IMG/VR virus record: IMGVR_UViG_3300044814_000016
Coordinates: 1 to 63,666 of that record
Length of the DNA: 63,666 nt
DNA from: a virus
Taxonomy: Duplodnaviria > Caudoviricetes
Reading direction: 5' to 3' (one strand)
The notes under the pieces are model-generated. The model ran no database searches and had not been told where the DNA came from. It was given only the letters and a program-made list of their open reading frames with translations. Shown in pieces: positions 23,016 to 44,976 of the stretch. Every line of letters starts with the position of its first letter. Within the stretch, counting starts at the first letter, position 1. The translations under genes and the position numbers were made by a program.

Positions 23016-23652
23016 CGATCGTGTCCGTCTTGACGTGCCCGACCCGCACACCGCAATGCAGCAGCACCGGCACCTCAGCCATCGCGCAGCGCAGGCAGAA
23101 ACTCATGTCCTCACCGAACAGCTCCTGATCGATGATCATCTCCGCCCACCAGAAACCCTCGTCACCGGGCTTCGCGCCGTTGATCCGCTTGAACGCGTTC
23201 CGGTGCATGAGCAGGCAGCCGGCCCCGACCGCCGCGACCTGGAGGACACCATCGCCCTTGACCAGCTCAGGGGTGAGTGCCCCGAACCGGAACCGGCCCT
23301 GGTCATCGTGCCCGGCACCGTACGCGATCGGGTGCTCCTCACCTTTCTCACGCGAGTAGTAGACACCGCTGACAACGGGCGTGTCCTCCGGGTCAGCGGC
23401 GGCCAGCAGCGCGGGAAGCGTCCTGATGCTGAACTCAATGTCGGTGTCCACCATCCACAGCCACTCCTGGTCGCCGTCGAGGAACATCCGCGTGATCGCG
23501 TTGCGCGCCTTCGACATGACCGGCCCGGTCCCGTAGGCGAGCACCCGCGCGACCGGGTTGTCCTTCACCTCGTTCTGGTTCACGACCGACATCATGAACT
23601 CGGTGCGCACCGAACCGGGGTGCGGGAACGCGAGCATCACACTGGGTGTCAC
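22999..23652 (-). CDS. GT-A fold glycosyltransferase, paralog A
   Basis: ARN..TRMFL...WLWMVDTD (DxD), GAGCLLMHR, GEDMSFC.R, VGHVK; GTGA overlap start. Confidence 0.85.
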   Translation of the reverse strand: MTPSVMLAFPHPGSVRTEFMMSVVNQNEVKDNPVARVLAYGTGPVMSKARNAITRMFLDGDQEWLWMVDTDIEFSIRTLPALLAAADPEDTPVVSGVYYSREKGEEHPIAYGAGHDDQGRFRFGALTPELVKGDGVLQVAAVGAGCLLMHRNAFKRINGAKPGDEGFWWAEMIIDQELFGEDMSFCLRCAMAEVPVLLHCGVRVGHVKTDTIGDVSP

Positions 23653-24293
23653 GTGACCTCCCCGAGCAGAACCGGCTTGACGTGCCCGACTTGGATGCCG
23701 GTGTGGACGTGCAACCGGATGTCGCACTGCTGCGCGCGGATGCAGAACGACAGGTCTTCACCGACCGGGTGCTCGTTCCACTCCATCTCGGTGAACCAGC
23801 GCGGGCCGTGCTTCGCCGCGATGTCCTCCAGTACGCTGCGGTGAATCAGCATGCACCCGGCACCGAGGCCCGCGACCCGGCGCAGGCGCCCGCCGTCTAG
23901 GTGCTCGGTGAGGGGAATGAAGCAGCCCTTGTCATCCGGGCCGGCCTCGTACGCGGCGGGACCCTGCTCGCCCTTGCGCAGCACGCGGTAGAGCGCTGAC
24001 ACGACCGGGCAGTACAGCGGGTCGGCGACGCCGAGCAGGCGCGGCAGCGTATCCGGGCGGAACACGATGTCAGTATCGATCGTCCACAGCCACTCGCACT
24101 CAGTCTCAAGGAACCGGGTCACGAGCTGGTTACGGGCGATCGCGATGAGCGGGCCTGCTGTGCTGTCGAGCATCCGCGTGATCAGCGGTGTCGCCTGCGG
24201 GCTCATGCACGCGTTGAACACGCTCGTCATGAACTCGGTTCGCACGGTGCCGCCGTGGATGAACCCGAGGAGCACCTGCCCGTCACCGCTCAT
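23649..24293 (-). CDS. GT-A fold glycosyltransferase, paralog B
   Basis: ARNQLV..FL...WLWTIDTD, GAGCMLIHR, GEDLSFC.R, VGHVK. Confidence 0.85.
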   Translation of the reverse strand: MSGDGQVLLGFIHGGTVRTEFMTSVFNACMSPQATPLITRMLDSTAGPLIAIARNQLVTRFLETECEWLWTIDTDIVFRPDTLPRLLGVADPLYCPVVSALYRVLRKGEQGPAAYEAGPDDKGCFIPLTEHLDGGRLRRVAGLGAGCMLIHRSVLEDIAAKHGPRWFTEMEWNEHPVGEDLSFCIRAQQCDIRLHVHTGIQVGHVKPVLLGEVT

Positions 24294-29331: not shown

Positions 29332-31028
29332 CTAGGGTACAGGGCGGTTAGCCGCCGCGTCCGCGTCGAACGTGGGGTCAGTCGAGCTAGCGTACGGCCC
29401 GGCCTGCGAGCAGTCGCAAACCTGGCACGTGTACTCGCGTACCCGGTTCGTGATGACCGGGGCACCGCACTGCCAGCAGGTCAGGTGCAGGTGCCTCACG
29501 ACCTGCTTCACCGTGGGGGACGTCCACGCTGTCGGGGCACCCTCGCAGTCACGCTCGCACCAGTCAGGCTCAGGCGGGGGCTTCCACGGTCGCGGCGGCG
29601 GGACGCGCGGTCCTGGCATCAGCCCTCACCACTCAGGATCACCTGCTCGGCGCGGCGCATCCACGCCTCAGCCATGCACCACGAGTAGGCGGCCTGCTGC
29701 GGTACCGGCGTGACCATCGCGAGGGCCACGTGCCGCATGACGTAGACCATGATCGCGTCAACCTCCCGGCTGCTCATTGCCGAACCGCTTCCTGAACAGC
29801 AGCCGGTAGACGGGGCCGACCCGGCGCCAGCCCGCGTAAGCCGGGTTGCCTGGATGCACCGACCGCCACAGCCGCCCGCAGTCGCACCGGACGATGACGC
29901 CCGGCCTGTCGGGCTCGCTCAGGTAGTCACGCGGGCAACTGTGCGGGTGGTAGATCTCAGCCATCCACACGGCGTACCTCCTTGAGTTCCTTGAGGCAGA
30001 CGGTGCTGCGCTCGCCTGCTAGGAACGGGGCGATAGCGAGCCACTTGACTACCAGGTCGCAGTCCAAGGCGGTATGCCCGACGACTTCCGCCGGGTACGG
30101 AACTCCGTGGTGGCTTATGAGGTGGACTCGTTCACCCACCTGGTAGTCAGCCGCGTTCACGGGGTACCTCCACGATGTCACCCATCACGAACAGGGGCGG
30201 CAGTTGCGTGATGTGCAGGTACAGGCCGTCGTCATGCGGGGCGATCATCAGGCTCTCCGGGTGGTCAGCCAGGTCAGCGGCGGTCAGGTGCACGTCACCG
30301 CCGCAGCGGCGCACCAGCGCCGTGATGATGCGGATCGCGCCGCTGCGCTCCCGGCCCAGAGCCGCTATCTCCGTCATGTCAATCATTCCGGTTCACGTCC
30401 CTTGCGATCTGTCCCGTACCTGGTGTTCAGGTACGCGTCCCACGACGCGCGGTACGCCTGGACCGAGGCCCACGCGACGTGGAACGCCACGCGGCCGGGT
30501 TTCATCTGGCCGAGGGCCGTCTTGCGGTTCCTCGACTGGGCGATGACCTTGCGGGCCGCTTTCGCCGCCGCGCGCATCGCCTGCTCCTCCGGGCTGTCAG
30601 TCATTCAGTTCACGTCCCTTGCGATGATCTCGTCGGTTGTCCACACACGACAACGGCACTCCCACCAGCACATCGCGAAGCTGTAGCGGACACGCCAGAG
30701 GCAACGAGGGCAGAACATCATCCCGCCCCCAGCAGCCAGGTCAGCGCGTACAGCAGCACCGCACCCGCAGCGCAGCCGAGCAGGAACGCGTCACCCCGGT
30801 TCACCCGCCGCCGCCGTTGAATACCTGCTCACGCGGGTGTGAGCACAGCGGGTCGAGGCAGCAGTACCAGCCCGGTGCGGGCAGCGGCATACCGGGCCAT
30901 GCACCCCACATCATCGGCCCGACACGCGCAGCGCACGCTACCCCGTCACAGCAGGCCAGCATGCCGGTCATGACCGCGTGCAGCCGTTCCGGCGGCTGCT
31001 CGTGATTGCACCAGGCGCAGCGCGTCAT
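29332..31028 (-). other. String of small hypothetical genes, several Cys-rich (29332..29619, 29619..29777, 29758..29964, 29957..30181, 30147..30386, 30383..30604, 30605..30721, 30801..31028)
   Basis: Overlapping start/stop packing on minus strand; CxxC motifs. Confidence 0.6.
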
Positions 31029-31957
31029 CCCGCGTCCAGCTCCCTCAGGCGCTGCGGTACCACCACCGGGATACGCGGGTCATCAGCAGGGATGCCGAAG
31101 TCACCGAGAAGCGCCATGATGAACCGCTGAAGGTTCTGCGCCTGCTGCACCTGCAAGTCAACGAGGCGTTCCGCGACGTTCGCCCGCAGTGCGGCTTCGC
31201 AGTTCGACTGGAGCACCGCCTCACGAGACTGGCGGATCTGCTGCCACATGCTCGTGCGGGCACCGTAGGTTGTCTTCCGCCCGGTCACGTCGTCGTCAGT
31301 CTCCGTGAGCCTGCCCCACACCAGCTCGTCCCGCTCCAGGGACGCGCACGTCACGTCGAGTCGAGCGACTTCACCGGCGAGGACGCGGACGCGCCACAGC
31401 AGCGCCTGAGCGGGGCCGATGTCGAGCGGTTCACCCGCGATCGGGTTGTTGCGCTGCTCGACGGCAACGAGGTGCTTGAGCTTCCCGCCGCGCCCCTGGT
31501 GCATGCGGCAGGTGGCGGTGCCCTCCATGACCGGGCCGTGACAGCGGGAGCCGTCGCGGTTGAAGCACTTGCCGTGCCACTGGTTGTGACCTGCGCAGTA
31601 CCAGGTGCCGGGCAATCGTATAGGTTCTGTTGGTCGTATACGACCCTGATCGCTGCTCCCTGCCCGGTTGAGGCGGAATGTCTTGTCGAACGCGGCAATC
31701 GTCAGGGCTGCCTGTTTCGCGATCTCAAGGGCGGGGTTCGCTACCGGGCGTCCCTCACGGTCGATGAGGATGTCGGTTTGGCTGAGGAGCTCGGCTGCTC
31801 GCTGCTGTGCCTGCACTGCTGAGACGTAGGCGGTGAGGCTGTTGGGGTCTACTCGGGCTCGTGTGCCTGCGGCGAGTAGCTGGGTGAGGGTGTCACGCCA
31901 GATGCGCTTGCCGGCGTCGTTGAGGTAGTCGGGTGGTGTGAGGTCCCGGTCAGTCAT
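31025..31957 (-). CDS. terS: Terminase small subunit (P27-like N-terminus, Cys/His middle domain, helical C-terminus)
   Basis: PPDYLNDAGKRIW...LTAYV...PVANPALEI (P27-like); C...GSRC...CRMHQG (HGGxSTG-like). Confidence 0.75.
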   Translation of the reverse strand: MTDRDLTPPDYLNDAGKRIWRDTLTQLLAAGTRARVDPNSLTAYVSAVQAQQRAAELLSQTDILIDREGRPVANPALEIAKQAALTIAAFDKTFRLNRAGSSDQGRIRPTEPIRLPGTWYCAGHNQWHGKCFNRDGSRCHGPVMEGTATCRMHQGRGGKLKHLVAVEQRNNPIAGEPLDIGPAQALLWRVRVLAGEVARLDVTCASLERDELVWGRLTETDDDVTGRKTTYGARTSMWQQIRQSREAVLQSNCEAALRANVAERLVDLQVQQAQNLQRFIMALLGDFGIPADDPRIPVVVPQRLRELDAG

Positions 31958-34401: not shown

Positions 34402-34929
34402 TCACGTCCAGACGATGCCGGTGCCGCACGGGCCACCGGGCCGGTCGATGATCTCCGTTGTGCGGTAGCGGGCGCGGATGTCCTGCCACGCGACCGGGAC
34501 CTGTATCTCCGGGTGACCGGGGTAGCCCTGCGTGTCGTGCACGACGATGATCCCGCCCGGTTCGGTGAGCGCCCCGTACATGCCGAAGTCACTCGCGGCG
34601 GTCACCAGGTCATGGCCGCCGTCGATGACCACGACCTGCGGCTGATGATCGCCCAGTGCCTCGACGACGGTCGCGTACGTCTCCATGTCCATGCTGTTCC
34701 CGGTGACCAGCGCGACGGGGAGCCCCAGGCTCTGGCTTGTCTCCTTCGCGTGCTCGTGCTCCTCGACGTCGACCGAGATGACGCGCCGCATCGACGGGAA
34801 CTGAGCGAGCGCCCAGATCAGCCCGCCCTGGTTCGTGCCGATCTCAAGCACCGTCTCAGGCCGGATCGAGGCGAGCAGCGAGAGCAGCACGGTGAGTTCG
34901 TACTCACTATGCAGCGCCCGGTGACGCAT
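34402..34929 (-). CDS. Class I SAM-dependent methyltransferase (Methyltransf_24/CmcI-like)
   Basis: VLEIGTNQGG, ISVD, GNS, IDGGH, PGGIIVVHD. Confidence 0.85.
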   Translation of the reverse strand: MRHRALHSEYELTVLLSLLASIRPETVLEIGTNQGGLIWALAQFPSMRRVISVDVEEHEHAKETSQSLGLPVALVTGNSMDMETYATVVEALGDHQPQVVVIDGGHDLVTAASDFGMYGALTEPGGIIVVHDTQGYPGHPEIQVPVAWQDIRARYRTTEIIDRPGGPCGTGIVWT

Positions 34930-34943
34930 GATGGCAGCGCGCG

Positions 34944-37708
34944 CTACCGGCCGCCACTGGGATCCAGGTCCACGAGTATCCATGCTTGTCCTTTCGCGTC
35001 GGGGCATACGCTGCCGCCGTGCTGGTAGTAAAGCTCGGTTCCGTGATCGAAGCCGTGCATCATGATCAGGGTCTCGCACATCGCCAGTTCCAGCGTCGCG
35101 CGAGCCATCACCTCAGTGATCGTCTCCCACGAGAGGCCCACTTCCTCGTCAGCGACGTGCGCCATGCTGACCATCGCCGGGCACCTCATGGATTCCTTGA
35201 CTTGTACAGGTGCGGCCATTCTTTGTCCCTCTCCGCGTCGTTCAGTGTGATACCGCAGTTGCATTGGATCAGCCGGTGGCCGGGCGGGGCATGCCCGTCT
35301 AGCGGGGCCAGGGTCATCGTGTCCGGGTCGTAGTCCTCCTCGGGGATCACGCGGGTTAGCCTCGGGTCGCTCCCGTCACAGGTTCGGCTCACGCCTCCTC
35401 AGCTCGGTCATGGGCCTCCGCCTGGCCCACCTGTGATGGGCCTGACGGCGCTCGAAGTGCCTCGGCATCGTGCTGCTGATGATGCGCTGGAACGCGCCAG
35501 CCCGCGCCTGGAAGCCGTAAGCGGGCGGCTCGCAGAACGTGCACATCCAGAGCCACGGGTGCCGCCCCCACTTCCCCTCCGCGTACCGGGAGCTGCCGCT
35601 GTAGTCGATGTGCGTGTTCTGCCAGATGTAGAACTTGCGCACCTTCGGGCGCTCGTGGTTCGTGCACGGCGGGTTGCGCCAGCTTCGCTGCGTCACGCTG
35701 GCATCTCCCTCAGCAGCAGCACAGCCGCCTCACCTGCGCTGATCGGCTCCCCGTCGAGCGTGAACGTGTCCCGGTGCCGCACGACTCTCGCGATGCCGTT
35801 ATCGACGACGATGTACTCCCGTACGACGGTGAGGCGGCCCTGGAGCAGCTCAACATGGAAGACGTATGGTTTCAGCTCAGACATGGTTCTGTCCCGTCAG
35901 CGTTGCTGTGTGAGCCGTCTGGGTGGACATCTGAGGGGACGCGGTGATCGCTCGCGGCTCGAAGATGCCCCAGCGCCCGCAGCCCCGGCACTGCCGCTCG
36001 TCACGAGTCCGCCACCTGCGCTTCATGTACTCGGCGAACTCGCTGTAGCTCAGGTGCTCGCGCAGCTCGTCCGAGTACCTGCACTCGGGTTCGCACTCAC
36101 CGGGGAACTCGGGCCGTATCGGGCCTCCGCCCGGCTTCAGCCGGAACGGGTAGACCGCCGGCCAGATCATGACGCTCATGTGCCTCTCCCTCTCTCTCGT
36201 GCTCACAGGTCGTAGAGAACCGCCCCGCCGTCATCCGGCGGCAGGTACTCCTGCATCGGCGGTGGCACCGTCCCGATCTGGTTGAACAGGCGAACCGCGG
36301 CGATCCGCTTGTCCCAGACACGCTCTATGAACTCGTCAGTGACCCACGCGGCGACCCGGCGCTCCATGAGGTGCCCCCAGGTGTCGGTGACCCTGAACAC
36401 CAGCTCCCACTGGTGCTCAGTCACGTTGTGCTCCCACGTGCCGCTCACAGCGTCACCCCGTACAGGTCACGGATGCGTTCCATCACGTACCGGCGCAGCA
36501 GCCAGCACTCCGGGCGGTGCGCCCGCTTCGGGTTCACCGAGGGCATCGGGAGACGGATCAGGCTGTTAGGCATCGTCGCTCCACATCTGCATCAGCTCAC
36601 CGAGGGTGTTCGGCTCAGGCCGGTCCCGCTGGTAGATCTTCCACGTCACCCGGCCAGACCTGCCCGTGACGAATGCCCCGGCGGCACCGCGCGTGTAGTG
36701 AAGCACGTGCTCGCACGGATGCAGGGTCACGTTCATCCCGATGACGATCGTCTCGTCATAGAACGGGTCCGGGCACGGGTTGGCGATCGCCGTGCAGGTG
36801 CAGTCGGGCGAGTCCGGGTCTTCGTCGTCGTACCGGCACGCCGGGTTGCGGCTTGAGATCACCGACATCGGGTTGCTCTTGATCGTCTCAGACTGCCCGT
36901 CGCAGCCGGTCACCACACCGCCGCACTGCGGGCACGGGTCGTACCACGTCTCGCGGATCACCGGTGCGCCCTCCGGTACCTGTCCCCGTCCGGGCACGTA
37001 GCGAAGTGCGACGTCCCGCGCTTCTCATTCGGCAGCAGCGCGTCACCCTGCCTGAGGTAGCGGTAGCGGAGCGTCCCTCCCTCGTCGCGCCAGATCGCGA
37101 GCTTGCCGTCCGGGTCGGGTTCGTGGTTGATCGGGTTGCGGTGAACTTCGCTGCCGTTCCTCGGCACGGTCATCGCCCAGTCGATCTCCTGATGACAGCT
37201 ATTGCATTCCTGTGCCATCGCTGGTCTCCCATCTCTCTCTCTTGCGTGATCAGGTGCGCCGCGAGCCCGAGCGTCACCCCGGCGGCCAGCCAGCGGTGCG
37301 CGCGGCACAGCGCCGTGATCGTCGGTACCCTGCCGCCCGCCACCAGGGCAGCCGCCTCGTAGGCGAGCACGGCAGCGGCGGCGTAGTTCACCGTGGCTCG
37401 CACACGTTCGACGTGACGGCGAACCCGTCCGGGGACGTCGCTATCCCCGTCCCGTGCAGGTCATCCATCACCCACCGCCCGTCGAGCACTGACGTCGCGA
37501 TCATGTGACAGCGGCGGGTACGGCAGCGCCACAGCACCGCCGTTGTGATGCTCGCGCCGTTGAACAGCGACGCCGGGCGTACCTGCGACTGCACCGGCAC
37601 GTAACGGTGCTTGTGCAACAGCACCGGCAGGATGATCAGCATGAGCAGCGCGCCGAGCGCGACACCGAGCCCGGTGTACCCCCACGTCGCCCAGTTCACC
37701 GCTCCCAT
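34944..37708 (-). other. String of small hypothetical genes (e.g. 34944..35219, 35376..35696, 35693..35884, 35877..36206, 36203..36448, 36566..36997, 36958..37218, 37388..37708)
   Basis: Overlapping minus-strand ORFs, several Cys-rich or with a TM helix. Confidence 0.55.
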
Positions 37709-38265
37709 GCGTCCCGCCCTCCCCGGAACTGAATGAGGGCGTCACTCAGCATCTGCGCCCAGTAGCGGCGGATCCGGTCCGGTGCGTCTGACGGCTCCGG
37801 GGTTACGCCGCGCTCGACGATCGCGCGGATCAGGTGCGGGGCGATCATGTACATCTCCTCGTCCGTCGCGGCGGCCTGCGTGGCGAGGTTCACCGGGGTC
37901 AGGATCGGGAGCTTCCCGTATTTCGGGTGACTCGGCGTGCAGTAGTCCATCATCGTGTCAACGGTCTGCCAGCCGCCGTCCGGGTTGATCGCTACGCAGC
38001 ACACCTCATGGGTGACGTCCGGGTGACTCTTCCGCGCCGGTCGCATCCCCGGAATGTCAGCGAGCCGCAGTATCGACAGGCTGTACTGCGACCACAGCGG
38101 GTGGAACCTCGGCGCGGTGACCAGCCAGTGAGATACCGTCGCCGCGAACTGCGGGACGCGCAGCATCGGCAGCTCGTCCGCCTTGCCGTACGGTCCCTCG
38201 ATGTGCAGCAGCTCACGAGGCGCGCGATGCTGCGGGCGAGGCGGGAACCCCGGTGGTGTCGTCAT
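37696..38265 (-). CDS. Hypothetical protein
   Basis: 189 aa, ATGA-coupled to upstream glycosyltransferase, AAAGAAGGGA RBS. Confidence 0.7.
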   Translation of the reverse strand: MTTPPGFPPRPQHRAPRELLHIEGPYGKADELPMLRVPQFAATVSHWLVTAPRFHPLWSQYSLSILRLADIPGMRPARKSHPDVTHEVCCVAINPDGGWQTVDTMMDYCTPSHPKYGKLPILTPVNLATQAAATDEEMYMIAPHLIRAIVERGVTPEPSDAPDRIRRYWAQMLSDALIQFRGGRDAWER

Positions 38266-39224
38266 GATCCCTTCTTTCCCCGGCGCGCGTGCTCCGGGTC
38301 GATCTCGTTAACGAGCTGCGTGGCACCGGACGGGTTGAGGCGCTGCCGGAAACGCGGGTTCGGCACCGCCTTGACCCGGTACGGGTTCCTGACCGGCGGC
38401 TTCCACTCCGGGTCCTTCAGCAGGTTCATGCCGTCGAACTCACTGAAATCAGCCTCATGATGCCAGCGCCCGTAGCGCCGCACGAGCTTCACGATGTCCG
38501 GGTGCATCGCGACCGCGAGCTGTGACTTCTCCAGCGTCCCGTCTGACCCGTAGAACTCTTCCATGTTGCCGCCCGGCATCGTCTGCGTGCCGCGCTTCTC
38601 CTGGTAGAACGCGCAGAACTTCACCGTGCACCAGCCGGCCCGCAGCATCATGATCGACAAGTCCAGGTCCTCGTTGTACCGGCCGCGCCAGCGCAGCATC
38701 GTGTCGTTGCGGATCAGATTGCAGGAGAAGATCCGCCTGTTCAGCGTGAACGGGTCACGGCGCGGGTCACGCGACGGCAGGAAGAACCTGTACTCCGGCC
38801 CCGCCATCCCCACGTTGACGTACCGGAGGCAGAAGTCTTCCATCGCAGCGAGCACCATGCCGTCGCCCACCCGCCTCCGGGCGTTCCTGTGCAGTCGCCC
38901 GAAGCAGTTGATGTTGTCATCCATCACCCAGTGCCACGCGTGCCCCTCGCTCCTGCTGTGATCCCATGCGAAGTTCCGCGCCGGGCCAGGCCCGAGTGAC
39001 TTCTCCCGGCCCACGTCGTCGCCCGTCTCGTACGCGTCCTGGTACGACGGCGGCAGCACCAGCAGCCGGTCAGCCGGGTACATCGCCCGGTACGCGCGAT
39101 ACTGCTGCTCCTCGACGATCAGCCGCGACGGGACACCCATCTGCTCCAGCACGCGCGGCGTCACCGCGATGTCAGCCCGCGACTTCGACGGGATGTACAC
39201 CGGCCACCGCGGGCTACTCGCCAT
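38262..39224 (-). CDS. TAGT/GREB1-like glycosyltransferase (putative DNA-base glycosyltransferase)
   Basis: PVYIPSKSRA, GPGPARNFAWDHS...WHWVMDDNI, RIFSCNLI, WRGRYNEDLDLS, TQTMPGGN, YGRWHH. Confidence 0.8.
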   Translation of the reverse strand: MASSPRWPVYIPSKSRADIAVTPRVLEQMGVPSRLIVEEQQYRAYRAMYPADRLLVLPPSYQDAYETGDDVGREKSLGPGPARNFAWDHSRSEGHAWHWVMDDNINCFGRLHRNARRRVGDGMVLAAMEDFCLRYVNVGMAGPEYRFFLPSRDPRRDPFTLNRRIFSCNLIRNDTMLRWRGRYNEDLDLSIMMLRAGWCTVKFCAFYQEKRGTQTMPGGNMEEFYGSDGTLEKSQLAVAMHPDIVKLVRRYGRWHHEADFSEFDGMNLLKDPEWKPPVRNPYRVKAVPNPRFRQRLNPSGATQLVNEIDPEHARRGKKGS

Positions 39225-39885
39225 CGTCCTGCACTTCCATCACCGAGTAGTCAGGCCCGTTGTCATCCGGCACGTGCGGCCACCACAGGTACTTCCGCGC
39301 CGGGCGCTCCGCCCCGATCAGCGCGAAGAACCGCTCCGCGTCCTCCTCAGCAGGGAAGTGCATCGTCACCGAGTACGCCGCCCGCGCCCCCGGCTGGTCA
39401 AAATCAGGCATCCCCTCCCACTCGTCCACCGGGTCAGTCGCCTTGACCTCAAGCGCGTGATGATGACGCAGCAGCGCCGCAAGCGCATCCTCCGGGTACC
39501 CCGTCCCCGCCAGACCTCGAGGATTTTTCTTCGCCGTCTGGAGCAGGTCGATCAGCTTGCCCTCGTCCATGGTGGCGAGGTGCGTGGTGCGGTTGTCGAT
39601 CGCGAGGATGCGCTCGGCTTCGTCGTCGTCGATGTCGAGCTTGAACGCGGGCAGCGTCGCCGCGCCCTTCGCCTTGGCGGCGCGGTAGCGGTGGTTACCC
39701 GCGACGATCCGCCCCGTTGACGCCTGCACGAGTACCGCCCCGTAGAAGCCGTGCTGGTCCAGGGACTCAGCGATCGCGCCGACGTCCCCCAGGTTCGGGT
39801 TCGACGGGTGCTCGTGCAGTGAGTCGATCGGCGTCTCCGCGTCGAACTCCTGCGGCGCCATCCAGAACGGGATCGGGTCAGACAC
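39214..39885 (-). CDS. ParB/Srx N-terminal domain protein
   Basis: LHEHPSNPN.GDV.AIAESL..HGFY...IVAGNHRYRAA...ILAIDNR. Confidence 0.85.
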   Translation of the reverse strand: MSDPIPFWMAPQEFDAETPIDSLHEHPSNPNLGDVGAIAESLDQHGFYGAVLVQASTGRIVAGNHRYRAAKAKGAATLPAFKLDIDDDEAERILAIDNRTTHLATMDEGKLIDLLQTAKKNPRGLAGTGYPEDALAALLRHHHALEVKATDPVDEWEGMPDFDQPGARAAYSVTMHFPAEEDAERFFALIGAERPARKYLWWPHVPDDNGPDYSVMEVQDDGE

Positions 39886-40115
39886 CGTTGAGCCTCCTCA
39901 CGGCGGGGTTGCCGTACCGCTCAAGCGCCGCTACCTCCGCGTCGAGGTCCGGGGTGGCACTCTCGCGGTACACCAGGATCGCGGCGACCATCTGCTCCTT
40001 GGTCCACGCCCCGGCGTCCCGCAGCGCGTACGGGTGCTGCTTGTTCACGAGCGCAGCGAGCTGGCTGCGCGTCTGCCGCATGAGCAGCATCGCCGCGCTC
40101 GGCGGCGGGTCAGTC

Positions 40116-40439
40116 TCACGCCTGGTCACTGATCGGCTCCCTTCCCAGGATGTGCCCGCCCGGCCCGCGCCTGTTCGCCAACCAGACGTCGATCCGGTCC
40201 TCCCGCCACACGGGAGACCGAACCACCACGGCACGCCCGTCCGCCCGGTGCACTGTGCGGGTGACGTGCTTGCGTGCCGCTGGCATGTCGCTCAGCGTCG
40301 CCTTGCCCAGTTTCCGGGCGCGCTTCCCCGCCGACTGGCAGGACTTGATCGTTGACAGCTCGACACCTGCGCGTGCGGCCACCTGTTCCATGAACAGCAG
40401 CCGCACGCCACCCTCAAGCAGTTCTTCCACCTGCATCAC
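40116..40439 (-). CDS. AlpA/excisionase-like DNA-binding protein
   Basis: EQVAARAGVELSTI HTH; SPVWREDRIDVWLANR.GPG. Confidence 0.6.
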   Translation of the reverse strand: MMQVEELLEGGVRLLFMEQVAARAGVELSTIKSCQSAGKRARKLGKATLSDMPAARKHVTRTVHRADGRAVVVRSPVWREDRIDVWLANRRGPGGHILGREPISDQA

Positions 40440-40451
40440 TTCCCAACTGAG

Positions 40452-40523
40452 TGATGGCCCCCGCTCCGGTGGGGGCGCAACGACCTACGGGGGTTCGGTC
40501 ATCACCCGGAGCGGGGGCCATCA
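40452..40523. terminator. 18-bp-stem inverted repeat downstream of the DUF932-like gene
   Basis: tgatggcccccgctccgg-N36-ccggagcgggggccatca. Confidence 0.55.
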
Positions 40524-40528
40524 GCTTG

Positions 40529-41752
40529 TCAGGCGAGGCGGGCAGCTACGGTCAGCGCCCGCTGCGCCTTGTCTTCGAGGTCGTACGTCACGTCGGCGTT
40601 GTCGGCGTGCTGCGCGGTCCACGTCACGGCTTGCATGATGCCGCCTGCGGTCGTCTGGCCGCCCTTGGTGAACGCGTTCAGGATGTCGTTTTCCATCTCC
40701 TTCGGGAACCCGGCGTCTGCGACGACGGCCTTGATCGTGTCAGCGGGGTGAGTGACCTCGACGCCCGCCAGCTTCTCCATCTCGCTGATCTTGTCGCGCA
40801 GGTACTCGACGTCGAGGAACGTGGTCACGGCGTCGCGGACCTTCGCGGTGACGAGCGCGAGTTCCTTCGCCACGGTGTCGTCGCTGTACTTGACTACGCC
40901 CTCTTCCCGCTTGCTGGTGAGGTGCACGGCGCGGAACGCGTCCTTGGTGAACGTCTGACCGTTCGCGCAGATCAGGAACTTGATGCGCGGGATGGCGGAG
41001 GTGGCACCGGAGCCGACCTCGCTGTTGCGGAACACGATGCCCGCGCTGATCGACGGGTCCTTGTCAGCCGTCTTGCCGGTCTTCGGGTTCCGGTAGCCCT
41101 TCAGCAGCTCGGGCGCGAGCGCCTTGATGCCGGGGGCGTTGATCGCCACGTACATGTGACGGTCGGTCAGGTCGCAGCGCTCGATCTTGATGCGCTTCTC
41201 CGGGGGCAGCTTCGGGTCGATCCCGAGACCTGCCTCCTGAAGCCCGGCGAACGCGGCGACGATCGTGTCGAGGTTGTCGACCGGCTTGAACGAATCACTC
41301 AGCAGCGCGCGGGCGATGCCGGTACCGTCCTCGTCGCCCCTGAACAGGCGCAGGAAGAACTTCCGGTCATCCGGTGCGACGCGCTCGTACATGTCGGCGT
41401 CGTCCGGGTTGTACCCGTGAAGCAGCGCGTTGAGGTTCGTGTCGTACAGGTCGAGGCGGTTCTGGTGCAGGTAGCGCAGGTACTGGCCGGTGATCGGCAG
41501 CCGGTCGGTGAGCCCGCCGTCGAACACCTCGGTCGGGACGTACTGCCCGCCGATGCTCGTGACGCCCTCGTCGGTGATCGCCGGGGCGGCGCTGTCCGGG
41601 ATGACCAGCGTCCCGTTGACGAACTCCATCTGAGACGCCGGAATCACGACGTCGAGGCGGCGGACGCGCTGAGTTTCGAGAATCTGGCGCAGCGTCGCGA
41701 AGTCGGCGCGGGTGGCGGTGGTGACCAGGTGATCGGTCATGGTGTGCTCCAC
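40529..41752 (-). CDS. DUF932-like protein
   Basis: ARALLSDSFKPVDN...GIVFRNSEVGSGA....PR...LICANG. Confidence 0.7.
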   Translation of the reverse strand: MEHTMTDHLVTTATRADFATLRQILETQRVRRLDVVIPASQMEFVNGTLVIPDSAAPAITDEGVTSIGGQYVPTEVFDGGLTDRLPITGQYLRYLHQNRLDLYDTNLNALLHGYNPDDADMYERVAPDDRKFFLRLFRGDEDGTGIARALLSDSFKPVDNLDTIVAAFAGLQEAGLGIDPKLPPEKRIKIERCDLTDRHMYVAINAPGIKALAPELLKGYRNPKTGKTADKDPSISAGIVFRNSEVGSGATSAIPRIKFLICANGQTFTKDAFRAVHLTSKREEGVVKYSDDTVAKELALVTAKVRDAVTTFLDVEYLRDKISEMEKLAGVEVTHPADTIKAVVADAGFPKEMENDILNAFTKGGQTTAGGIMQAVTWTAQHADNADVTYDLEDKAQRALTVAARLA

Positions 41753-41810: not shown

Positions 41811-42132
41811 CGTCGCCGTCTTCGTTCGGCTCACCGGGAGCGAACTCCTCACCCGGCTCGTACGGCAGGATCATCGCGCCCGTCCGGGCCGACAGCGCCT
41901 GGAACAGCACCTCCGCGACGATGCCGCGCTGGTCCTCGGGCACGATCTCCGCGTGCCTGACCCGGAGGGTCATCGTGGTCTGGTCCTTGTCGAGGTTGAG
42001 CTTGTTCTCGAACCCGGACATGAGCGCGACGACGAGGAACGTCTTGCGCTGACCTTCGCCGAGCAGCTTCTCAGCGTCGATCAGGCCGTTTTTCTCGTCG
42101 TCGGGTAGCGCCCCGGCGAGCTTGATGATCAT
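41806..42132 (-). CDS. Hypothetical protein
   Basis: MIIKLAGALPDDEKNGL; ATGA overlap with rusA-like gene. Confidence 0.65.
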   Translation of the reverse strand: MIIKLAGALPDDEKNGLIDAEKLLGEGQRKTFLVVALMSGFENKLNLDKDQTTMTLRVRHAEIVPEDQRGIVAEVLFQALSARTGAMILPYEPGEEFAPGEPNEDGDA

Positions 42133-42626
42133 GCGAATACCCCCAGTTCGGCGATACTGATCCATGCTCCTGGCACCCGTTGTGCGTGCTGATGACCGCC
42201 AGGGTACACCGCTGCGCTGAAACATTCGACGACTTGGCAGTCATCCTTCCAGACGCCCGCGTCGGTGATCGCGTCCTCGGTGGCCCTGACCAGGTGACTC
42301 AGGTCCCCGGTGGCGCGAGTCGCCGGGCGGGCCGGCGCAGTCGGCTTGAGCCTGCGCCGGTTCTTCCCGGTGCCGTAGTGCGACGTGGGGCGGGCGAACG
42401 TGAACACGACGTACAGCAGCACCGGCCCTTCCATCGGCTCCCACTTCTCCGCCTGCTCCCCCGTGGCGTCACCGATCGCCAGCTCGGCTGACTCGACGAC
42501 CGCGCCCCGGTACGACTTCACGCCCGCCGCGCTCGACTCGATCATGTACGGCTTGCCGCTCTTGCTGACACGGGGCCGCTTGCTCCCCTGCGGTGCGGGG
42601 CGGGCGTGAACGGTGAACTCCAGCAC
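42129..42626 (-). CDS. rusA: RusA-family Holliday junction resolvase
   Basis: PAPQGSK...F.RP.SHY...GDLSHLVRATEDAIT..GVWKDDCQVV. Confidence 0.88.
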   Translation of the reverse strand: MLEFTVHARPAPQGSKRPRVSKSGKPYMIESSAAGVKSYRGAVVESAELAIGDATGEQAEKWEPMEGPVLLYVVFTFARPTSHYGTGKNRRRLKPTAPARPATRATGDLSHLVRATEDAITDAGVWKDDCQVVECFSAAVYPGGHQHAQRVPGAWISIAELGVFA

Positions 42627-42630
42627 GGGG

Positions 42631-42879
42631 TCACCCCTTGGCGGGCTCGGTGAACTCCGTGCCGCCGCCGGTCCTCTCGGCTGCGTCCCAGTGGCGGCGC
42701 AGCGCCTCCAGGGCACCGAAGTTGCCGTTCGCCTTGACGTCGGCCAGGTACGCCGCGAACGCCGTCAGCGCCACGGTGTCAGGGCCGCCCGCGTCGATCG
42801 CGGTGTTCAGGGCGGTCTCGGTGGTGCCCGCCCACGTGCCCAGGCTGAACATGTCCTTGTTCGTGTGCCGTGTACCCAT
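42631..42879 (-). CDS. Hypothetical protein
   Basis: 82 aa from ATG 42879, GAGGGAGAG upstream. Confidence 0.55.
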   Translation of the reverse strand: MGTRHTNKDMFSLGTWAGTTETALNTAIDAGGPDTVALTAFAAYLADVKANGNFGALEALRRHWDAAERTGGGTEFTEPAKG

Positions 42880-42914: not shown

Positions 42915-44204
42915 TTACCCGCCGTCGCCCTCCGGCAACAGCGGTACCGTCCACTCAGGACGGTGGTCATAGTTGGCCACCCAAGGCCACGTCGTGCCCA
43001 GCGGGCGACTCCGGGTGATCCAGTTTGGCCAGCGGCGCTCCTCGTCACGCTGACCCTTGAACCAGGTCCAGTCCAGGGCACCGTGATCACCGTCGTGCTT
43101 TTTGATGGCGTAGTTCAGCGACACGCCGAACTCGCACCACTTCGCCCACAGGTTCGTGCCCTCCGGCCGCATCTCGCGCTTGCCGCCACCAGCACCGTAC
43201 GGGGCGTGCTCCTCCAGCCACAGCGCGACCCCGTAGTCCTCTCGCATCCGGTCCCAGAACGCAGCGAGCAGCGCGTACGACTCCAGGTCCGCCTTGACGC
43301 CCCAGATCATCTTGTAAATCGGGCCGGCCACCACGAGCTGAGCCCGCGTCCGCTTAATGAGCTGCGCCATGCCGTACGCGTCACGCGGCGAGGTGAGATT
43401 CATCCCGCCCGGCTTGTGCAGCAGCGTCAGGTTCTTGCTGTCCCACCCGCCGTACGCCTGCGCCAGGCCCCGGAACGTTCGGAACCGGCGCTGGACGATG
43501 TGCTCCGGGTTTTCCCCGTCCACGACCAGCACCCGCAGCGGCTCCATCGGCTCGAAGGAGAACGGGTGCGCCCCGGCTGACGCAGCGAATCCCACCTGGA
43601 GCCCGAGAATCGACTTGCCGCTCCCCTCCGGTCCCACGACCATCGCCCGCTCCTGCGGGTACAGCAGATTCGGGATCAGCGGCTCCGATGTGGGCTTCTC
43701 CGCATCGCAGACCTCGTCTGCGGTCAGCCCTTGCATGTCGAAGTCGATAGCCGTCGTCAGCGCCCGGTCAAGCAGCGTGTGACCCCGGCCGATCATCGTC
43801 GCCTCGTCCACGTCGCCCTGCCGCGCCTCGCTGATCATCCGGCTGCCGACACTGATCAGCGCCCGTCGCGTGGCACAGCGACGCACGATCTTCGCGTACA
43901 CCACCGCCCAGTCAGGGATCACCTGGAGGCCGGCCAGGTCAGCGATGTAGATCCCGTCGCCGCCGATCGCCCGCAGGTCCCCGTTCTCCGTCATCCACGC
44001 GACGATCGTCACCGGGTCGATCGGCTCACCAGCCGCCATCATCAGCACGAGCGTACGGAAGATCACCTGATGACCAGGGCGAAAGAAACTTCCCTCGTCA
44101 ACGATCTCCGCTGCCTGCTCGACGGCTGACGGGTGCAACATCATCGCCGCCAGGGTGCGGCGCTCGGCCTCGATGTCGTGGATCGGCAGCTCGTCGTCAG
44201 TCAT
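42915..44204 (-). CDS. Replicative helicase: DnaB N-terminal domain plus RecA-like (AAA_25-type) ATPase
   Basis: PIHDIEAER...FFRPGHQVIF...IDPVT; Walker A GPEGSGKS; VLVVDGEN. Confidence 0.85.
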   Translation of the reverse strand: MTDDELPIHDIEAERRTLAAMMLHPSAVEQAAEIVDEGSFFRPGHQVIFRTLVLMMAAGEPIDPVTIVAWMTENGDLRAIGGDGIYIADLAGLQVIPDWAVVYAKIVRRCATRRALISVGSRMISEARQGDVDEATMIGRGHTLLDRALTTAIDFDMQGLTADEVCDAEKPTSEPLIPNLLYPQERAMVVGPEGSGKSILGLQVGFAASAGAHPFSFEPMEPLRVLVVDGENPEHIVQRRFRTFRGLAQAYGGWDSKNLTLLHKPGGMNLTSPRDAYGMAQLIKRTRAQLVVAGPIYKMIWGVKADLESYALLAAFWDRMREDYGVALWLEEHAPYGAGGGKREMRPEGTNLWAKWCEFGVSLNYAIKKHDGDHGALDWTWFKGQRDEERRWPNWITRSRPLGTTWPWVANYDHRPEWTVPLLPEGDGG

Positions 44205-44976
44205 CGCTACCGAACCCGCTCTCTGGCGTGGCGTAGCCCGGCCGGTCCCACGGCGGTACGCCAGCCTGATCGTCATCGCCGTCGTACTCGTCATCCCAGC
44301 CGCCGTCATTGAGCCACGTCGCCGGGTGCTTGGTGAACTTCGACCGTCCGGGTTGAAGCTGGTGCTCGGCGTACACCGCAGCAGCCGAGATGATCACCGT
44401 CACCTCGGCCGCGTCCTTGCCCTTGACTGCCTTCGCCCATGCCCTGATTGCTCGCTGCTTGGCGACTCGGCGGGGGTAGACCGCCCAGAAGTCATCGAAG
44501 CGATCCGATACTGAGCTTGACTCAGCGTTGACCATGTTCATGGGTTGGGTTGGGTTGGGTTGGGTGCTATTGGGGTCAGATGGGGTACCCCATGTTGACC
44601 CCATGTTGACCCCATTAGAATCAGCATCGAACAGTGTCGGTCCCCATCGTTTGTCGGCCCCGCGTTTCCCCGCCTTGGACATCGCCTCACGAGCGTCGAG
44701 CTGCTGCCACTTGCGGTAGTTGCGGAACTGCCAGCCGTCGTCCTCGGCCGGCTCCCACAGTCGCACCTGAACAAGCAGGTCCGCGAGTGCCGCCGTCCGG
44801 TCGCCTGCGAACGTCTCGGCAACTTCGGCGGGGATGATGCCCTGCTTGCCGTGTGCGTGGGTCCATGACAGGCAGAACGTCCACAGCCCGGCGGCGGCGA
44901 GCCCGTCCGGGTGCCGCAGCAGTCGCATCGCCTTCAGGTGACCGTAGAGCTGGTCATCTACTCGCGCCCAAGACAT
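44197..44976 (-). CDS. Replication initiator protein
   Basis: MSWARVDD...AAGLW; C-terminal FDDFWAVYPRRVAK...KHPATWLN...WDDE; internal iterons. Confidence 0.85.
   Translation of the reverse strand: MSWARVDDQLYGHLKAMRLLRHPDGLAAAGLWTFCLSWTHAHGKQGIIPAEVAETFAGDRTAALADLLVQVRLWEPAEDDGWQFRNYRKWQQLDAREAMSKAGKRGADKRWGPTLFDADSNGVNMGSTWGTPSDPNSTQPNPTQPMNMVNAESSSVSDRFDDFWAVYPRRVAKQRAIRAWAKAVKGKDAAEVTVIISAAAVYAEHQLQPGRSKFTKHPATWLNDGGWDDEYDGDDDQAGVPPWDRPGYATPESGFGSDD
44528..44647. repeat. Iteron cluster / probable replication origin inside the initiator gene
   Basis: (TGGGT)x5 at 44541-44565, then TGGGGT copies facing tandem ACCCCATGTTG repeats. Confidence 0.7.

What the first reader, a model, noticed from the sequence alone, without database searches (positions are those of the whole stretch)
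38262..39885. ParB-like plus TAGT/GREB1-like glycosyltransferase pair with no visible base-hydroxylating partner
Seen: overlapping ParB-N and GT genes; the ParB protein has an extra C-terminal segment (EWEGMPDFDQP...F...EDAERFFALIG). Known: TAGT/GREB1/base-J glucosyltransferases add sugars to hydroxymethylpyrimidines and usually sit with TET/JBP dioxygenases. I see no TET/JBP, hydroxymethylase, thymidylate synthase or DNA methylase in the genome. Inference: a minimal DNA-modification or anti-restriction system with a different acceptor, possibly activated by the ParB/Srx domain or by the coupled 189-aa gene.
Basis: partly seen in the sequence, partly recalled or inferred. Interest (0 to 1): 0.72.

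Follow-up and report, generated by a model that had tools for sequence, protein, structure and literature searches.

The report
Phage ParB-tethered DNA-type sugar transferase pair
A soil actinobacterial phage carries a widespread two-gene cassette, a ParB-like protein whose tail appears to grip a sugar-transferring enzyme of the kind phages use on DNA, yet it lacks every known enzyme that prepares a DNA base to receive a sugar, so what gets the sugar is an open, testable question.

Summary
On the minus strand, 39214-39885 encodes a ParB-N protein and 38262-39224 a TAGT (PF20691) GT-A glycosyltransferase. The window is a complete 63.7-kb phage record. I found no TET/JBP, other 2OG oxygenase, ThyA-family enzyme or DNA methyltransferase in it.

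The pair is a mobile two-gene cassette:
- A ParB gene lies just upstream of the GT in 72 of 80 IMG/VR loci. Seven of the other 8 are cut at a contig edge.
- Across 8 complete or near-complete phages (31-67% GC), GT and ParB are the only families shared by all.
- TET/JBP was found in 0 of 25 related records and ThyA in 0 of 26.

The "extra C-terminal segment" is a conserved ~75-aa tail (3156 cluster representatives). In other phages it is fused to the GT. It is predicted to dock on the GT: score 0.83, best control 0.01. The same ParB-N type is fused to DNA methyltransferases in actinophages.

Best reading: a ParB-tethered, post-replicative DNA glycosyltransferase with an unknown acceptor. The 189-aa gene is an orphan and not part of the cassette.

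This scan had already noted ParB-TAGT pairs on other DNA: 59 findings in at least 57 genomes.

The parts
39214..39885 (-). ParB-like partner protein, 223 aa: ParB-N nucleotide-binding domain, a short helical linker and a C-terminal GT-docking tail
   Evidence: PF02195 at 1.9e-6. phrog_723 at 1.8e-33. PDB Noc/Spo0J/ParB at 2.7e-5. A homologue lies directly upstream of the GT, on the same strand, in 72 of 80 loci.
39451..39837 (-). ParB-N (ParB/Srx-type) domain, about residues 17-145. Box II reads G-N-H-R where canonical ParB has G-E-R-R.
   Evidence: A local profile of the clade's N-domains matches residues 17-145 at 3.4e-38. Clade-conserved residues are N29, S41, G46, G63, D97 and N98; position 31 is R in 57 of 62 sequences but N in the window. 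It is 44.8% identical to the N-terminus of Gordonia phage Wizard gp78, a ParB-N plus N6_N4 DNA methylase fusion.
39217..39453 (-). C-terminal tail, residues 145-223, with the motif E-W-x-G-M-P-x-F and later W-x-P: the predicted GT-docking element
   Evidence: Alignment A1 has W12, M15, P16 and F42 invariant. There are 3156 cluster representatives at E <= 1e-3. The tail is fused to the GT N-terminus in Aeh1, PTm1, Kuja and Vibrio 1.124.O, at profile E 4e-13 to 2e-5. P0188 is a ParB-N/tail/GT fusion. Alone it is mostly coil, pLDDT 72.6. The complex score is 0.83 against a best control of 0.01.
38262..39224 (-). TAGT-family GT-A glycosyltransferase, 320 aa, with invariant W-H-W-V-M-D-D-N-I (97-105) and R-W-R-G-R-x-N-E-D (178-186)
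   Evidence: PF20691 at 1.7e-38. 4671 relatives at E <= 1e-3, the best non-self ones 54-68% identical. 68 invariant columns across 35 sequences. AF2 model pLDDT 87.2 and pTM 0.84, with GT-A neighbours in Foldseek.
37696..38265 (-). Translationally coupled 189-aa orphan gene. It is next to the cassette but not part of the conserved pair.
   Evidence: ATGA overlap with a purine-rich stretch upstream. GC3 is 0.86. No Pfam, PHROG or NCBIfam family. Absent from 0 of 80 loci. One partial 28-residue hit in IMG/VR. Only itself among 5.8 billion proteins. The Atlas model has pLDDT 0.35.
34402..35079 (-). RMNT_CmcI-like class I SAM methyltransferase: a possible but unproven sugar-tailoring accessory 3.2 kb downstream in the same transcription direction
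   Evidence: PF04989 at 1.8e-12 and Methyltransf_24 at 6e-9. NCBIfam rhamnosyl O-methyltransferase only at 0.0013, far under its cut-off. No relative in the 80 loci. No significant similarity to the methyltransferase part of P0184.

Best explanation
The two genes form a self-contained, horizontally mobile phage cassette. The 223-aa protein is an adaptor. Its C-terminal ~75-residue tail wraps onto the glycosyltransferase (inferred from fusions and a predicted complex). Its N-terminal ParB-type nucleotide-binding domain brings the enzyme onto double-stranded DNA, probably as a nucleotide-gated dimer or clamp. That step is inferred by analogy with the ParB-dependent phage thymine dioxygenases and from fusions of the same ParB-N type to DNA methyltransferases. 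The TAGT-family GT-A enzyme then moves a sugar from a host NDP-sugar onto phage DNA after replication and before packaging (inferred, not shown). No enzyme that makes 5-hydroxymethyl-pyrimidines travels with the cassette. The acceptor is therefore not a phage-made hydroxymethyl base of the known pathways. It is something available in any host, most simply a position on ordinary DNA. The 189-aa downstream gene is not part of the system.
For: 1. CONSERVED PAIR. ParB is found directly upstream of the GT, on the same strand, in 72 of 80 IMG/VR loci. The median gap between the two alignments is 41 nt. Seven of the 8 misses have the GT within 196 nt of the contig edge, and the eighth (L080) has a ParB by clustering. 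The loci span 28-72% GC.

2. SELF-CONTAINED. In an all-against-all BLASTP of 8 complete or near-complete phage genomes (31-67% GC), only GT and ParB are shared by all 8. The next families are shared by at most 4. Tet_JBP was found in 0 of 25 records, 9 of them at least 90% complete. ThyA, 2OG-FeII_Oxy_3 and 2OG-FeII_Oxy_2 were each found in 0 of 26, 10 of them at least 90% complete.

3. PHYSICAL COUPLING.
- The tail profile hits the N-terminal extension of the GT in Aeh1 (4e-13), Kuja (1.3e-7 and 2.1e-5), PTm1 (3.6e-7) and Vibrio 1.124.O (3.4e-6). It also hits an ORF just upstream of the GT in henriette (4.8e-11).
- Pairwise BLASTP gives 6e-5 and 5e-5.
- Among the best 150 tail-bearing representatives, 115 are ParB-N/tail, 2 are tail-tail-GT and 1 is ParB-N/tail/GT.
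- Predicted complex of GT with tail: score 0.83 in three runs (0.83, 0.83, 0.84), best of 3 controls 0.01. The mark was reached by 58 of 80 solved complexes and 2 of 110 mismatched pairs. The runs agree in at least 81% of contacts and the partner's pLDDT is at least 74.
- Invariant tail residues E11, W12, M15 and P16 touch a GT surface around the invariant residues M128, E129 and F131.
- No sequence relative of the GT is in the PDB, so the pass is not likely to come from a remembered structure.

4. DNA AS TARGET.
- This ParB-N type is 44.8% identical to the N-terminus of actinophage N6_N4 DNA methyltransferases such as Wizard gp78, and Pam4_70 has the same arrangement. phrog_498 'DNA methyltransferase' matches at 8.2e-22.
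- GT relatives in isolates sit among clamp-loader and DNA polymerase genes (henriette), beside helicases, a Dam methylase and a dUTPase (Vibrio 1.124.O), or between the cos site and the terminase (Lactobacillus phage c5).
- Published work shows a phage ParB homologue without a DNA-binding domain activating its cognate DNA dioxygenase on dsDNA. GTs (31%), ParBs (27%) and terminases (19%) are the commonest neighbours of those dioxygenases (PMC13229309, sections read).

5. NOT A PARTITION SYSTEM. No ParA-type ATPase was found.
Against: - Nothing here shows that any DNA is modified, and no reads that could show it exist for this phage.
- No chemistry is known for putting a sugar on an unmodified DNA base with a GT-A enzyme.
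- A TAGT-like domain in human GREB1 glycosylates a protein (PMC7968844, passage seen).
- ParB-N is dispensable in some phages. None of 5 isolates with a tail-GT fusion has a ParB_N domain. Four of those 5 encode a ThyA-family enzyme. In them the same GT could act on hydroxymethyl bases, which would argue that the acceptor class is the usual one.
- The window's ParB_N score is barely over Pfam's cut-off. The window lacks the clade's conserved R31, and box II lacks the catalytic Glu of canonical ParB.
- The TET search rang in no control genome at E <= 0.01, and I ran no positive control on a phage known to carry TET.
Confidence: 0.5

Rival explanations
1. The GT glycosylates something other than DNA: a protein (the ParB partner itself or a universally conserved host protein) or a nucleotide or other small molecule. 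The ParB-like protein then acts as a regulator or substrate adaptor rather than a DNA loader.
For: GREB1, which has a TAGT-like domain, O-GlcNAcylates a protein (PMC7968844). No base-preparing enzyme is present. The ParB protein has no recognisable DNA-binding domain; ParB_N is its only Pfam hit. The GT survey's authors doubt a DNA role for such orphan GTs. ParB/Srx domains bind nucleotides.
Against: No other phage protein family is shared by the 8 genomes, so a phage protein target other than ParB is unlikely. A host protein target would have to be conserved across hosts of 28-72% GC. This ParB-N type is fused to bona fide DNA methyltransferases. The gene neighbourhoods are DNA replication, modification and packaging.
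Confidence: 0.25
2. It is an ordinary hydroxymethyl-pyrimidine glycosyltransferase. The 5hmU or 5hmC is supplied by an enzyme that was missed: a very divergent dioxygenase or hydroxymethylase among the unannotated genes, a different one in each phage, or a host activity.
For: The GT is a clear TAGT member. It is 43-48% identical to GTs of large phages that encode ThyA-family enzymes: Aeh1, PTm1, Kuja and henriette. PMC13229309 reports thousands of contigs retrieved by its 5mYOX profiles that carry no TET/JBP Pfam annotation. The window has unannotated proteins of 150-657 aa.
Against: TET, two other 2OG families and ThyA were each found in 0 of 25-26 records, including 9-10 nearly complete genomes. 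No third family is shared by the 8 genomes even at BLASTP E <= 1e-5, although the GT stays 50-60% identical. Each phage would need its own unrelated, undetectable partner. Five of the records are proviruses, which is hard to reconcile with wholesale pre-replicative base replacement.
Confidence: 0.15
3. The ParB-like protein is a nuclease or packaging helper, the GT works independently (for example on cell-envelope or virion glycans), and their adjacency reflects only a shared late operon.
For: Such proteins are often annotated 'ParB-like nuclease domain protein'. The pair usually lies just before the packaging genes, as in c5.
Against: Fusions of the tail, and of the whole ParB protein, to the GT. 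The predicted docking. The pair moving together between unrelated phages. The GT matched only TAGT in Pfam and was modelled as one compact GT-A domain; I ran no signal-peptide or membrane-segment predictor.
Confidence: 0.05

Closest known systems
ParB-dependent phage thymine dioxygenases (5mYOX176 with ParB176; O'Toole et al., PNAS 2026, PMC13229309; abstract and sections 5, 9, 12, 13 read)
   Same: [quoted passage not shown] It is encoded beside GTs and terminases, and its C-terminal part is required.
   Different: There is no dioxygenase here or in 25 related records. The partner enzyme is the GT itself. The C-terminal part is a conserved docking tail that other phages fuse to the GT. Whether it matches the 'CTD' of ParB176 could not be checked, because those sequences are in supplements I could not open. 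Box II lacks the Glu.
TAGT / JGT-like GT-A DNA glycosyltransferases of phage 5mYOX or ThyS clusters (Burke et al. 2021, PMC8256090, passages seen; bioRxiv 10.1101/2023.12.21.572611, section 9 read)
   Same: Same Pfam family, PF20691 at 133 bits. GT-A fold. A phage late or DNA-metabolism context.
   Different: Those enzymes act on 5hmC or 5hmU made by a methyltransferase plus TET, or by a ThyS-like enzyme. No such source exists here. This clade is unusually conserved: 54-68% identity among the best 119 non-self relatives, from metagenomes of many sources, with loci spanning 28-72% GC.
Aeh1ORF087c-type glucosyltransferase of T4-like Aeromonas phages. A table in PMC8056088 (seen) lists it, after Iyer et al. 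2013, as 'presumably modifies DNA, unknown base'. The 2013 paper itself is not held.
   Same: 46.8% identical over 82% of the window GT, with the same invariant motifs. It carries the same tail.
   Different: The tail is fused to the N-terminus of the GT, and no ParB-N domain exists anywhere in that genome. That genome encodes a ThyA-family enzyme.
ParB-N fused to N6/N4 DNA methyltransferases of actinophages (for example Gordonia phage Wizard gp78)
   Same: The same ParB-N subtype, 44.8% identity over residues 19-133, attached to an enzyme that modifies DNA after replication.
   Different: The link there is covalent and the enzyme is a methyltransferase. Here the link is a separate docking tail and the enzyme is a glycosyltransferase.
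T4 alpha-glucosyltransferase working with the gp45 sliding clamp (recalled from the literature, not from any call)
   Same: The idea of a DNA glycosyltransferase held on DNA by a ring-shaped clamp.
   Different: T4 uses a GT-B enzyme, a PCNA-type clamp and pre-made hydroxymethylcytosine.

Membership tests
TAGT, TET-associated glycosyltransferase (Pfam PF20691) | Sequence matches the family profile above the curated cut-off | tested here: met
   133.1 bits against 27.5, covering profile positions 2-204 of 205. The genome search gave 134.3 bits.
TAGT, TET-associated glycosyltransferase (Pfam PF20691) | GT-A fold with an acidic metal and NDP-sugar motif | tested here: met
   AF2 model pLDDT 87.2. 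Foldseek finds GT-A enzymes (LH3 GT domain, SpsA, GpgS, TarP) at E from 2.6e-5. D102-D103 and E185-D186 are invariant in 35 sequences. That these are the metal-binding residues is my inference.
TAGT, TET-associated glycosyltransferase (Pfam PF20691) | Genomic association with a TET/JBP dioxygenase or another source of 5-hydroxymethyl-pyrimidine | tested here: not met
   PF12851, PF13640, PF13532 and PF00303 found nothing in the window genome or in 25-26 related records.
TAGT, TET-associated glycosyltransferase (Pfam PF20691) | Transfers a sugar to hydroxymethyl-pyrimidine in DNA | not testable with these tools
   Needs biochemistry or nucleoside mass spectrometry.
ParB/Srx N-terminal domain (PF02195) | Profile match and similarity to solved ParB, Noc or Spo0J N-domains | tested here: met
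   28.2 bits against 26.3, which is marginal. phrog_723 at 1.8e-33. PDB 7ng0 Noc at 2.7e-5.
Canonical chromosome- or plasmid-segregation ParB (ParABS) | G-E-R-R box II with the catalytic Glu | tested here: not met
   The window reads G-N-H-R. The clade reads G-(H/N)-x-(R/T), with no Glu in 62 sequences.
Canonical chromosome- or plasmid-segregation ParB (ParABS) | Central helix-turn-helix DNA-binding domain and a parS site | tested here: inconclusive
   No HTH family in Pfam or NCBIfam, and only about 35 residues lie between the N-domain and the tail. No full-length structure was predicted. No parS-like repeat stood out in 36500-41000.
Canonical chromosome- or plasmid-segregation ParB (ParABS) | A partner ParA ATPase | tested here: not met
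   PF13614 and PF01656 found nothing in the genome at E <= 0.1, while all 14 control genomes rang.
ParB-dependent 5mYOX DNA hypermodification system (PMC13229309) | A 5mYOX (TET/JBP) dioxygenase encoded with the ParB | tested here: not met
   Limitation: only the Pfam profile was available, not the authors' phage-specific profiles.
ParB-dependent 5mYOX DNA hypermodification system (PMC13229309) | A ParB homologue with the nucleotide-binding domain and a required C-terminal part but no DNA-binding domain, needed for enzyme action on dsDNA | tested here: inconclusive
   The architecture fits. The need for ParB and any action on dsDNA cannot be tested here.
T-even hydroxymethylcytosine glucosylation | dCMP hydroxymethylase (ThyA family) plus a GT-B glucosyltransferase | tested here: not met
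   No PF00303 match. The GT has a GT-A fold.

The most novel reading that the evidence does not exclude
The ParB-tail/TAGT cassette puts a sugar directly on an ordinary, unmodified position of double-stranded DNA (a canonical base or the backbone) with no hydroxymethyl handle. The ParB-like protein acts as a nucleotide-gated clamp that holds the transferase on the duplex. That would be a new chemistry of DNA modification, carried by thousands of phages from many bacterial phyla.
Probability: 0.3. Interest if true: 0.9.

Novelty: new variant of a known kind. Interest (0 to 1): 0.6.

Why it matters
Sugars on phage DNA defeat restriction and CRISPR systems and have given useful enzymes. Every known case needs a hydroxymethyl-pyrimidine made first.

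This cassette is very common: 4671 GT relatives, 3156 cluster representatives of the tail and more than 599 IMG/VR stretches. It is highly conserved and moves between unrelated phages as just two genes.

If it modifies DNA, it does so on an acceptor present in any cell, which would be a new modification chemistry and a new use of the ParB fold. If it does not, a large share of the 'DNA-type' glycosyltransferases in viromes are misread.

Either answer is reachable with two genes expressed in a laboratory strain. The docking tail gives precise mutants to test.

Tried and rejected
- Nucleotide search of the phage collection with 37000-41000 found no match.
- The 553-560-aa GT relatives were suspected to be ParB-GT fusions. 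They are tandem TAGT-TAGT proteins.
- The 189-aa gene as a hidden dioxygenase or partner:
  - no family
  - the Atlas model is too poor to use and gave no usable hit
  - one partial hit in IMG/VR
  - no relatives
  - absent from 80 loci
- The CmcI-like methyltransferase as a conserved third component: no relative in the 80 loci and no significant likeness to the methyltransferase of the ParB-tail-methyltransferase fusion P0184.
- The tail as an independent globular domain: alone it is modelled mostly as coil with one helix, so I ran no fold search on it.
- Sequencing runs: three soil-metagenome runs hold the stretch, all kept as contigs, and no RNA holder is listed. They cannot show modification or expression, so I did not lay reads.
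- Papers: Iyer et al. 2013 is not held under its DOI or PMC id. The first paper search was too broad to be useful.
- Searches for the pair in print were. They returned only the NEB papers cited here, which do not describe a ParB-GT cassette without a dioxygenase.
- Look-ups of this scan's notes by sequence, by place and by a longer word list found nothing.
- A parS-like repeat near the pair: none stood out.
Full report
WHAT IS THERE

The window is a complete virus record of 63,666 bp with direct terminal repeats, 67% G+C. Its portal is about 36% identical to portals of Arthrobacter phages; the other matching records are mostly Gordonia and Mycobacterium phages. Near-identical DNA occurs in soil metagenome assemblies. 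I read it as an actinobacterial phage.

The finding's coordinates span exactly two minus-strand genes.
- 39214-39885 encodes a 223-aa protein with a ParB N-terminal domain:
  - PF02195 at 1.9e-6, just over the cut-off
  - phrog_723 at 1.8e-33
  - Noc/Spo0J/ParB N-domains in the PDB at 2.7e-5
- 38262-39224 encodes a 320-aa protein. Its only Pfam match is TAGT, PF20691, at 1.7e-38.

The genes belong to a chain of overlapping reading frames. An upstream 118-aa ORF overlaps ParB by 8 nt, ParB overlaps the GT by 11 nt, and the GT stop overlaps the ATG of a 189-aa ORF as ATGA.

Along the minus strand the pair lies between the replication genes and the packaging genes.
- Replication side: a replication initiator at 44197-44976, DnaB at 42915-44309 and RusA at 42129-42716.
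- Packaging side: a small-terminase-like gene at 31025-31957, the large terminase at 21456-23051 and the portal at 18107-20335.

IS A BASE-PREPARING ENZYME HIDDEN IN THE GENOME?

Six-frame profile searches of the whole record found none of these families:
- Tet_JBP at E <= 1
- 2OG-FeII_Oxy_3 or 2OG-FeII_Oxy_2
- the thymidylate synthase/hydroxymethylase family
- N6_N4, C5 or D12 DNA methylases

Pfam, PHROG and NCBIfam scans covered 38 of the larger window proteins. They gave no oxygenase or hydroxymethylase. The only methyltransferase is a CmcI/rhamnosyl-O-methyltransferase-like class I enzyme at 34402-35079.

Several proteins remain without any family, so this genome alone cannot exclude a very divergent enzyme. 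The comparative data below address that gap.

THE PAIR IS A MOBILE TWO-GENE CASSETTE

The GT has 4671 relatives at E <= 1e-3. The best 119 non-self ones are 54-68% identical and all carry PF20691.

I ran tblastn with 31 window proteins against those 80 loci.
- The GT was found in 80 and ParB in 72.
- The 189-aa protein was found in 0, and no other protein in more than 1.
- All 72 ParB genes are upstream of the GT on the same strand. The median gap between the two alignments is 41 nt, and four loci have 350-1058 nt between them.
- Seven of the eight loci without a hit have the GT within 196 nt of the contig edge. The eighth has a ParB by clustering.
- The loci span 28-72% G+C.

For whole-record tests I took the 25 loci on the longest contigs, out of the 80.
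- Tet_JBP was found in 0 of 25, 9 of them at least 90% complete.
- With the window added, ThyA family and two further 2OG-oxygenase families were each found in 0 of 26.

I then fetched 7 of those 9 nearly complete records; G002 and G006 were left out. I clustered all ORFs of at least 60 aa from these and from the window. GT and ParB are the only families present in all eight genomes (31-67% G+C, 30-64 kb). The next families are shared by at most four, evidently related, phages.

So whatever the pair needs beyond itself does not travel with it. Five of the 25 records are proviruses.

THE "EXTRA C-TERMINAL SEGMENT" IS THE LINK BETWEEN THE TWO PROTEINS

In a 45-sequence alignment W156, M159, P160 and F186 are invariant, and E155, F177, W201 and P203 nearly so. 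For that alignment I used 44 of the 54 distinct tails I had.

A profile of that alignment was searched against 1.84 billion cluster representatives. It finds 3156 proteins at E <= 1e-3 and 2157 at E <= 1e-10. The best 150 have these architectures by local profiles:

| Architecture | Count |
|---|---|
| ParB-N / tail | 115 |
| tail only (some are fragments) | 27 |
| tail / tail | 4 |
| tail / tail / GT | 2 |
| ParB-N / tail / GT (P0188, 494 aa) | 1 |
| split hit | 1 |

One ParB-N/tail protein, P0184, continues into a class I SAM methyltransferase.

In cultured phages the GT relatives carry this tail at their own N-terminus:
- Aeromonas phage Aeh1, profile E 4e-13
- Tenacibaculum phage PTm1, 3.6e-7
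- both tandem GTs of Vibrio phage Kuja, 1.3e-7 and 2.1e-5
- Vibrio phage 1.124.O, 3.4e-6
- phage henriette, as an ORF just upstream of the GT, 4.8e-11

None of these five genomes has a ParB_N domain anywhere.

Folded alone, the tail is mostly coil with one helix (pLDDT 72.6). This is what one expects of a segment that folds on a partner.

A complex prediction of GT with tail supports binding.
- The score was 0.83 in all three runs (0.83, 0.83, 0.84). The best of three controls scored 0.01.
- The runs agree in at least 81% of contacts, and the partner's pLDDT is at least 74.
- In the tool's calibration the mark was reached by 58 of 80 solved complexes and 2 of 110 mismatched pairs. Those counts hold only roughly, because I supplied my own alignments.
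- Invariant tail residues E11, W12, M15 and P16 touch a GT surface around the invariant residues M128, E129 and F131.
- The GT has no sequence relative in the PDB at E <= 1, so a remembered complex is an unlikely cause.

This is a model's confidence, not a measurement. The fusions are the independent evidence.

WHAT THE ParB-N DOMAIN SUGGESTS

The clade conserves most positions that bind the nucleotide in canonical ParB: N29, R31, S41, G46, R66 and N98 by my alignment to Noc and Spo0J. Box II, however, reads G-(H/N)-x-(R/T) with no Glu. The window protein also has N in place of R31. I infer a nucleotide-binding switch with little or no hydrolysis; this is untested.

There is no ParA in the genome, and no helix-turn-helix family was detected.

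The nearest relatives of this N-domain among isolates are the N-termini of DNA methyltransferases:
- Gordonia phage Wizard gp78 is 44.8% identical over residues 19-133, and its residues 187-386 match N6_N4_Mtase.
- Pseudanabaena phage Pam4 gp70 combines the domain with N6_N4_Mtase and a PLP enzyme.

So this type of ParB-N is a module that phages attach to enzymes whose substrate is DNA.

COMPARISON WITH WHAT IS PUBLISHED

O'Toole et al. (PMC13229309; abstract and sections 5, 9, 12 and 13 read) show the following.
- A phage ParB homologue that has the nucleotide-binding and C-terminal domains, but no DNA-binding domain, is needed by its cognate thymine dioxygenase on dsDNA.
- GTs, ParBs and terminases are the commonest neighbours of such dioxygenases.

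Burke et al. [quoted passage not shown]

The GT survey (bioRxiv 10.1101/2023.12.21.572611, section 9 read) reports that about 65% of some 25,000 GT contigs have no 5mYOX or ThyS nearby. It treats those contigs as less obviously DNA-related.

A review table (PMC8056088, passages seen) lists the Aeh1 GT as 'presumably modifies DNA, unknown base'.

My searches found no paper that describes the ParB-GT pair as a dioxygenase-free cassette or that identifies the docking tail. Supplements were closed, and Iyer et al. 2013 is not held. Either may bear on this.

This scan itself has noted ParB-TAGT pairs 59 times in at least 57 genomes, all with the same missing base-preparing enzyme except one TET-bearing case.

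MOST LIKELY MECHANISM, AND ITS WEAK POINTS

Shown here:
- a conserved, mobile two-gene unit
- a tail that other phages fuse to the GT
- no known source of hydroxymethyl bases

Inferred:
- the tail docks ParB on the GT
- ParB-N loads the enzyme on dsDNA as a nucleotide-gated dimer
- the GT glycosylates phage DNA late in infection from a host NDP-sugar

The acceptor is unknown. Because nothing else co-travels and the hosts range widely, it should be universal, and ordinary DNA is the simplest candidate.

Points against this reading:
- There is no direct evidence of DNA modification.
- A TAGT-like domain, in GREB1, glycosylates a protein.
- Among isolates with the tail-GT fusion, 4 of 5 encode a ThyA-family enzyme, against 0 of 26 records with the separate ParB. 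This could mean the GT's natural acceptor is a hydroxymethyl base after all.

The GT model is a confident GT-A fold (pLDDT 87.2). Its nearest solved structures are only remote: TM 0.32-0.46 and 7-15% identity. Structure therefore does not name the acceptor.

VERDICT

It is a new variant of a known kind, the ParB-assisted phage DNA-modifying enzymes and TAGT glycosyltransferases. It carries a widely distributed and easily testable open question.

Noticed in passing
window 34402-35079 (-): A class I SAM methyltransferase of the RMNT_CmcI / rhamnosyl O-methyltransferase type (PF04989 at 1.8e-12) lies 3.2 kb downstream of the GT. It could methylate a sugar. It is not conserved with the pair.
   Followed up: partly
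window 40452-40523: A perfect 18-nt inverted repeat with a 36-nt spacer sits between the 407-aa phrog_1362 gene and the run of overlapping genes that leads into ParB-GT. It may be a terminator or a regulatory hairpin.
   Followed up: no
window 37696-38265 (-): The 189-aa gene is translationally coupled to the GT (ATGA) and has coding-like GC3, but it has no relative in 5.8 billion proteins or in IMG/VR beyond one 28-residue partial hit.
   Followed up: yes
P0006, P0010, P0021; loci L003, L018, L075: Tandem TAGT-TAGT fusion proteins of 553-577 aa follow a ParB gene, which suggests two successive sugar transfers. Vibrio phage Kuja has two adjacent tail-GT genes.
   Followed up: partly
P0184 (470 aa): ParB-N plus tail fused to a class I SAM methyltransferase (Methyltransf_12/23/11). 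The ParB-tail module therefore also occurs joined to a methyltransferase.
   Followed up: partly
L108:2923-5412 (Pseudanabaena phage Pam4 gp70): An 829-aa protein combines a ParB-N domain, an N6_N4 DNA methylase and a PLP-dependent enzyme domain. This is an unusual fusion that hints at amino-acid chemistry on DNA.
   Followed up: no
L087:3091-4292 (Vibrio phage henriette 12B8): The tail ORF and the GT lie in a stretch with no annotated feature, between the clamp-loader and dUTPase/DNA polymerase genes. The gene is missing from the record's annotation.
   Followed up: partly
G010 23487-24162 (-): In one provirus the ParB partner is split into two ORFs of 103 and 106 aa, which may be a frameshift or decay, while the GT is intact.
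   Followed up: no
window 18107-20335 (-): The 742-aa portal (Portal_Mu) extends over what Arthrobacter phages annotate as two genes, a portal and a MuF-like minor capsid protein, so it may be a fusion.
   Followed up: no
window 24955-26928 (-): A 657-aa ORF with no Pfam, PHROG or NCBIfam family and an unusually high second-position G+C of 0.65. It is unclear whether it is one real gene.
   Followed up: no
Tenacibaculum phage PTm1, record positions 199569-201143: The ThyA-family match is split into two pieces within one 527-aa open frame, which suggests an inserted element such as an intein.
   Followed up: no
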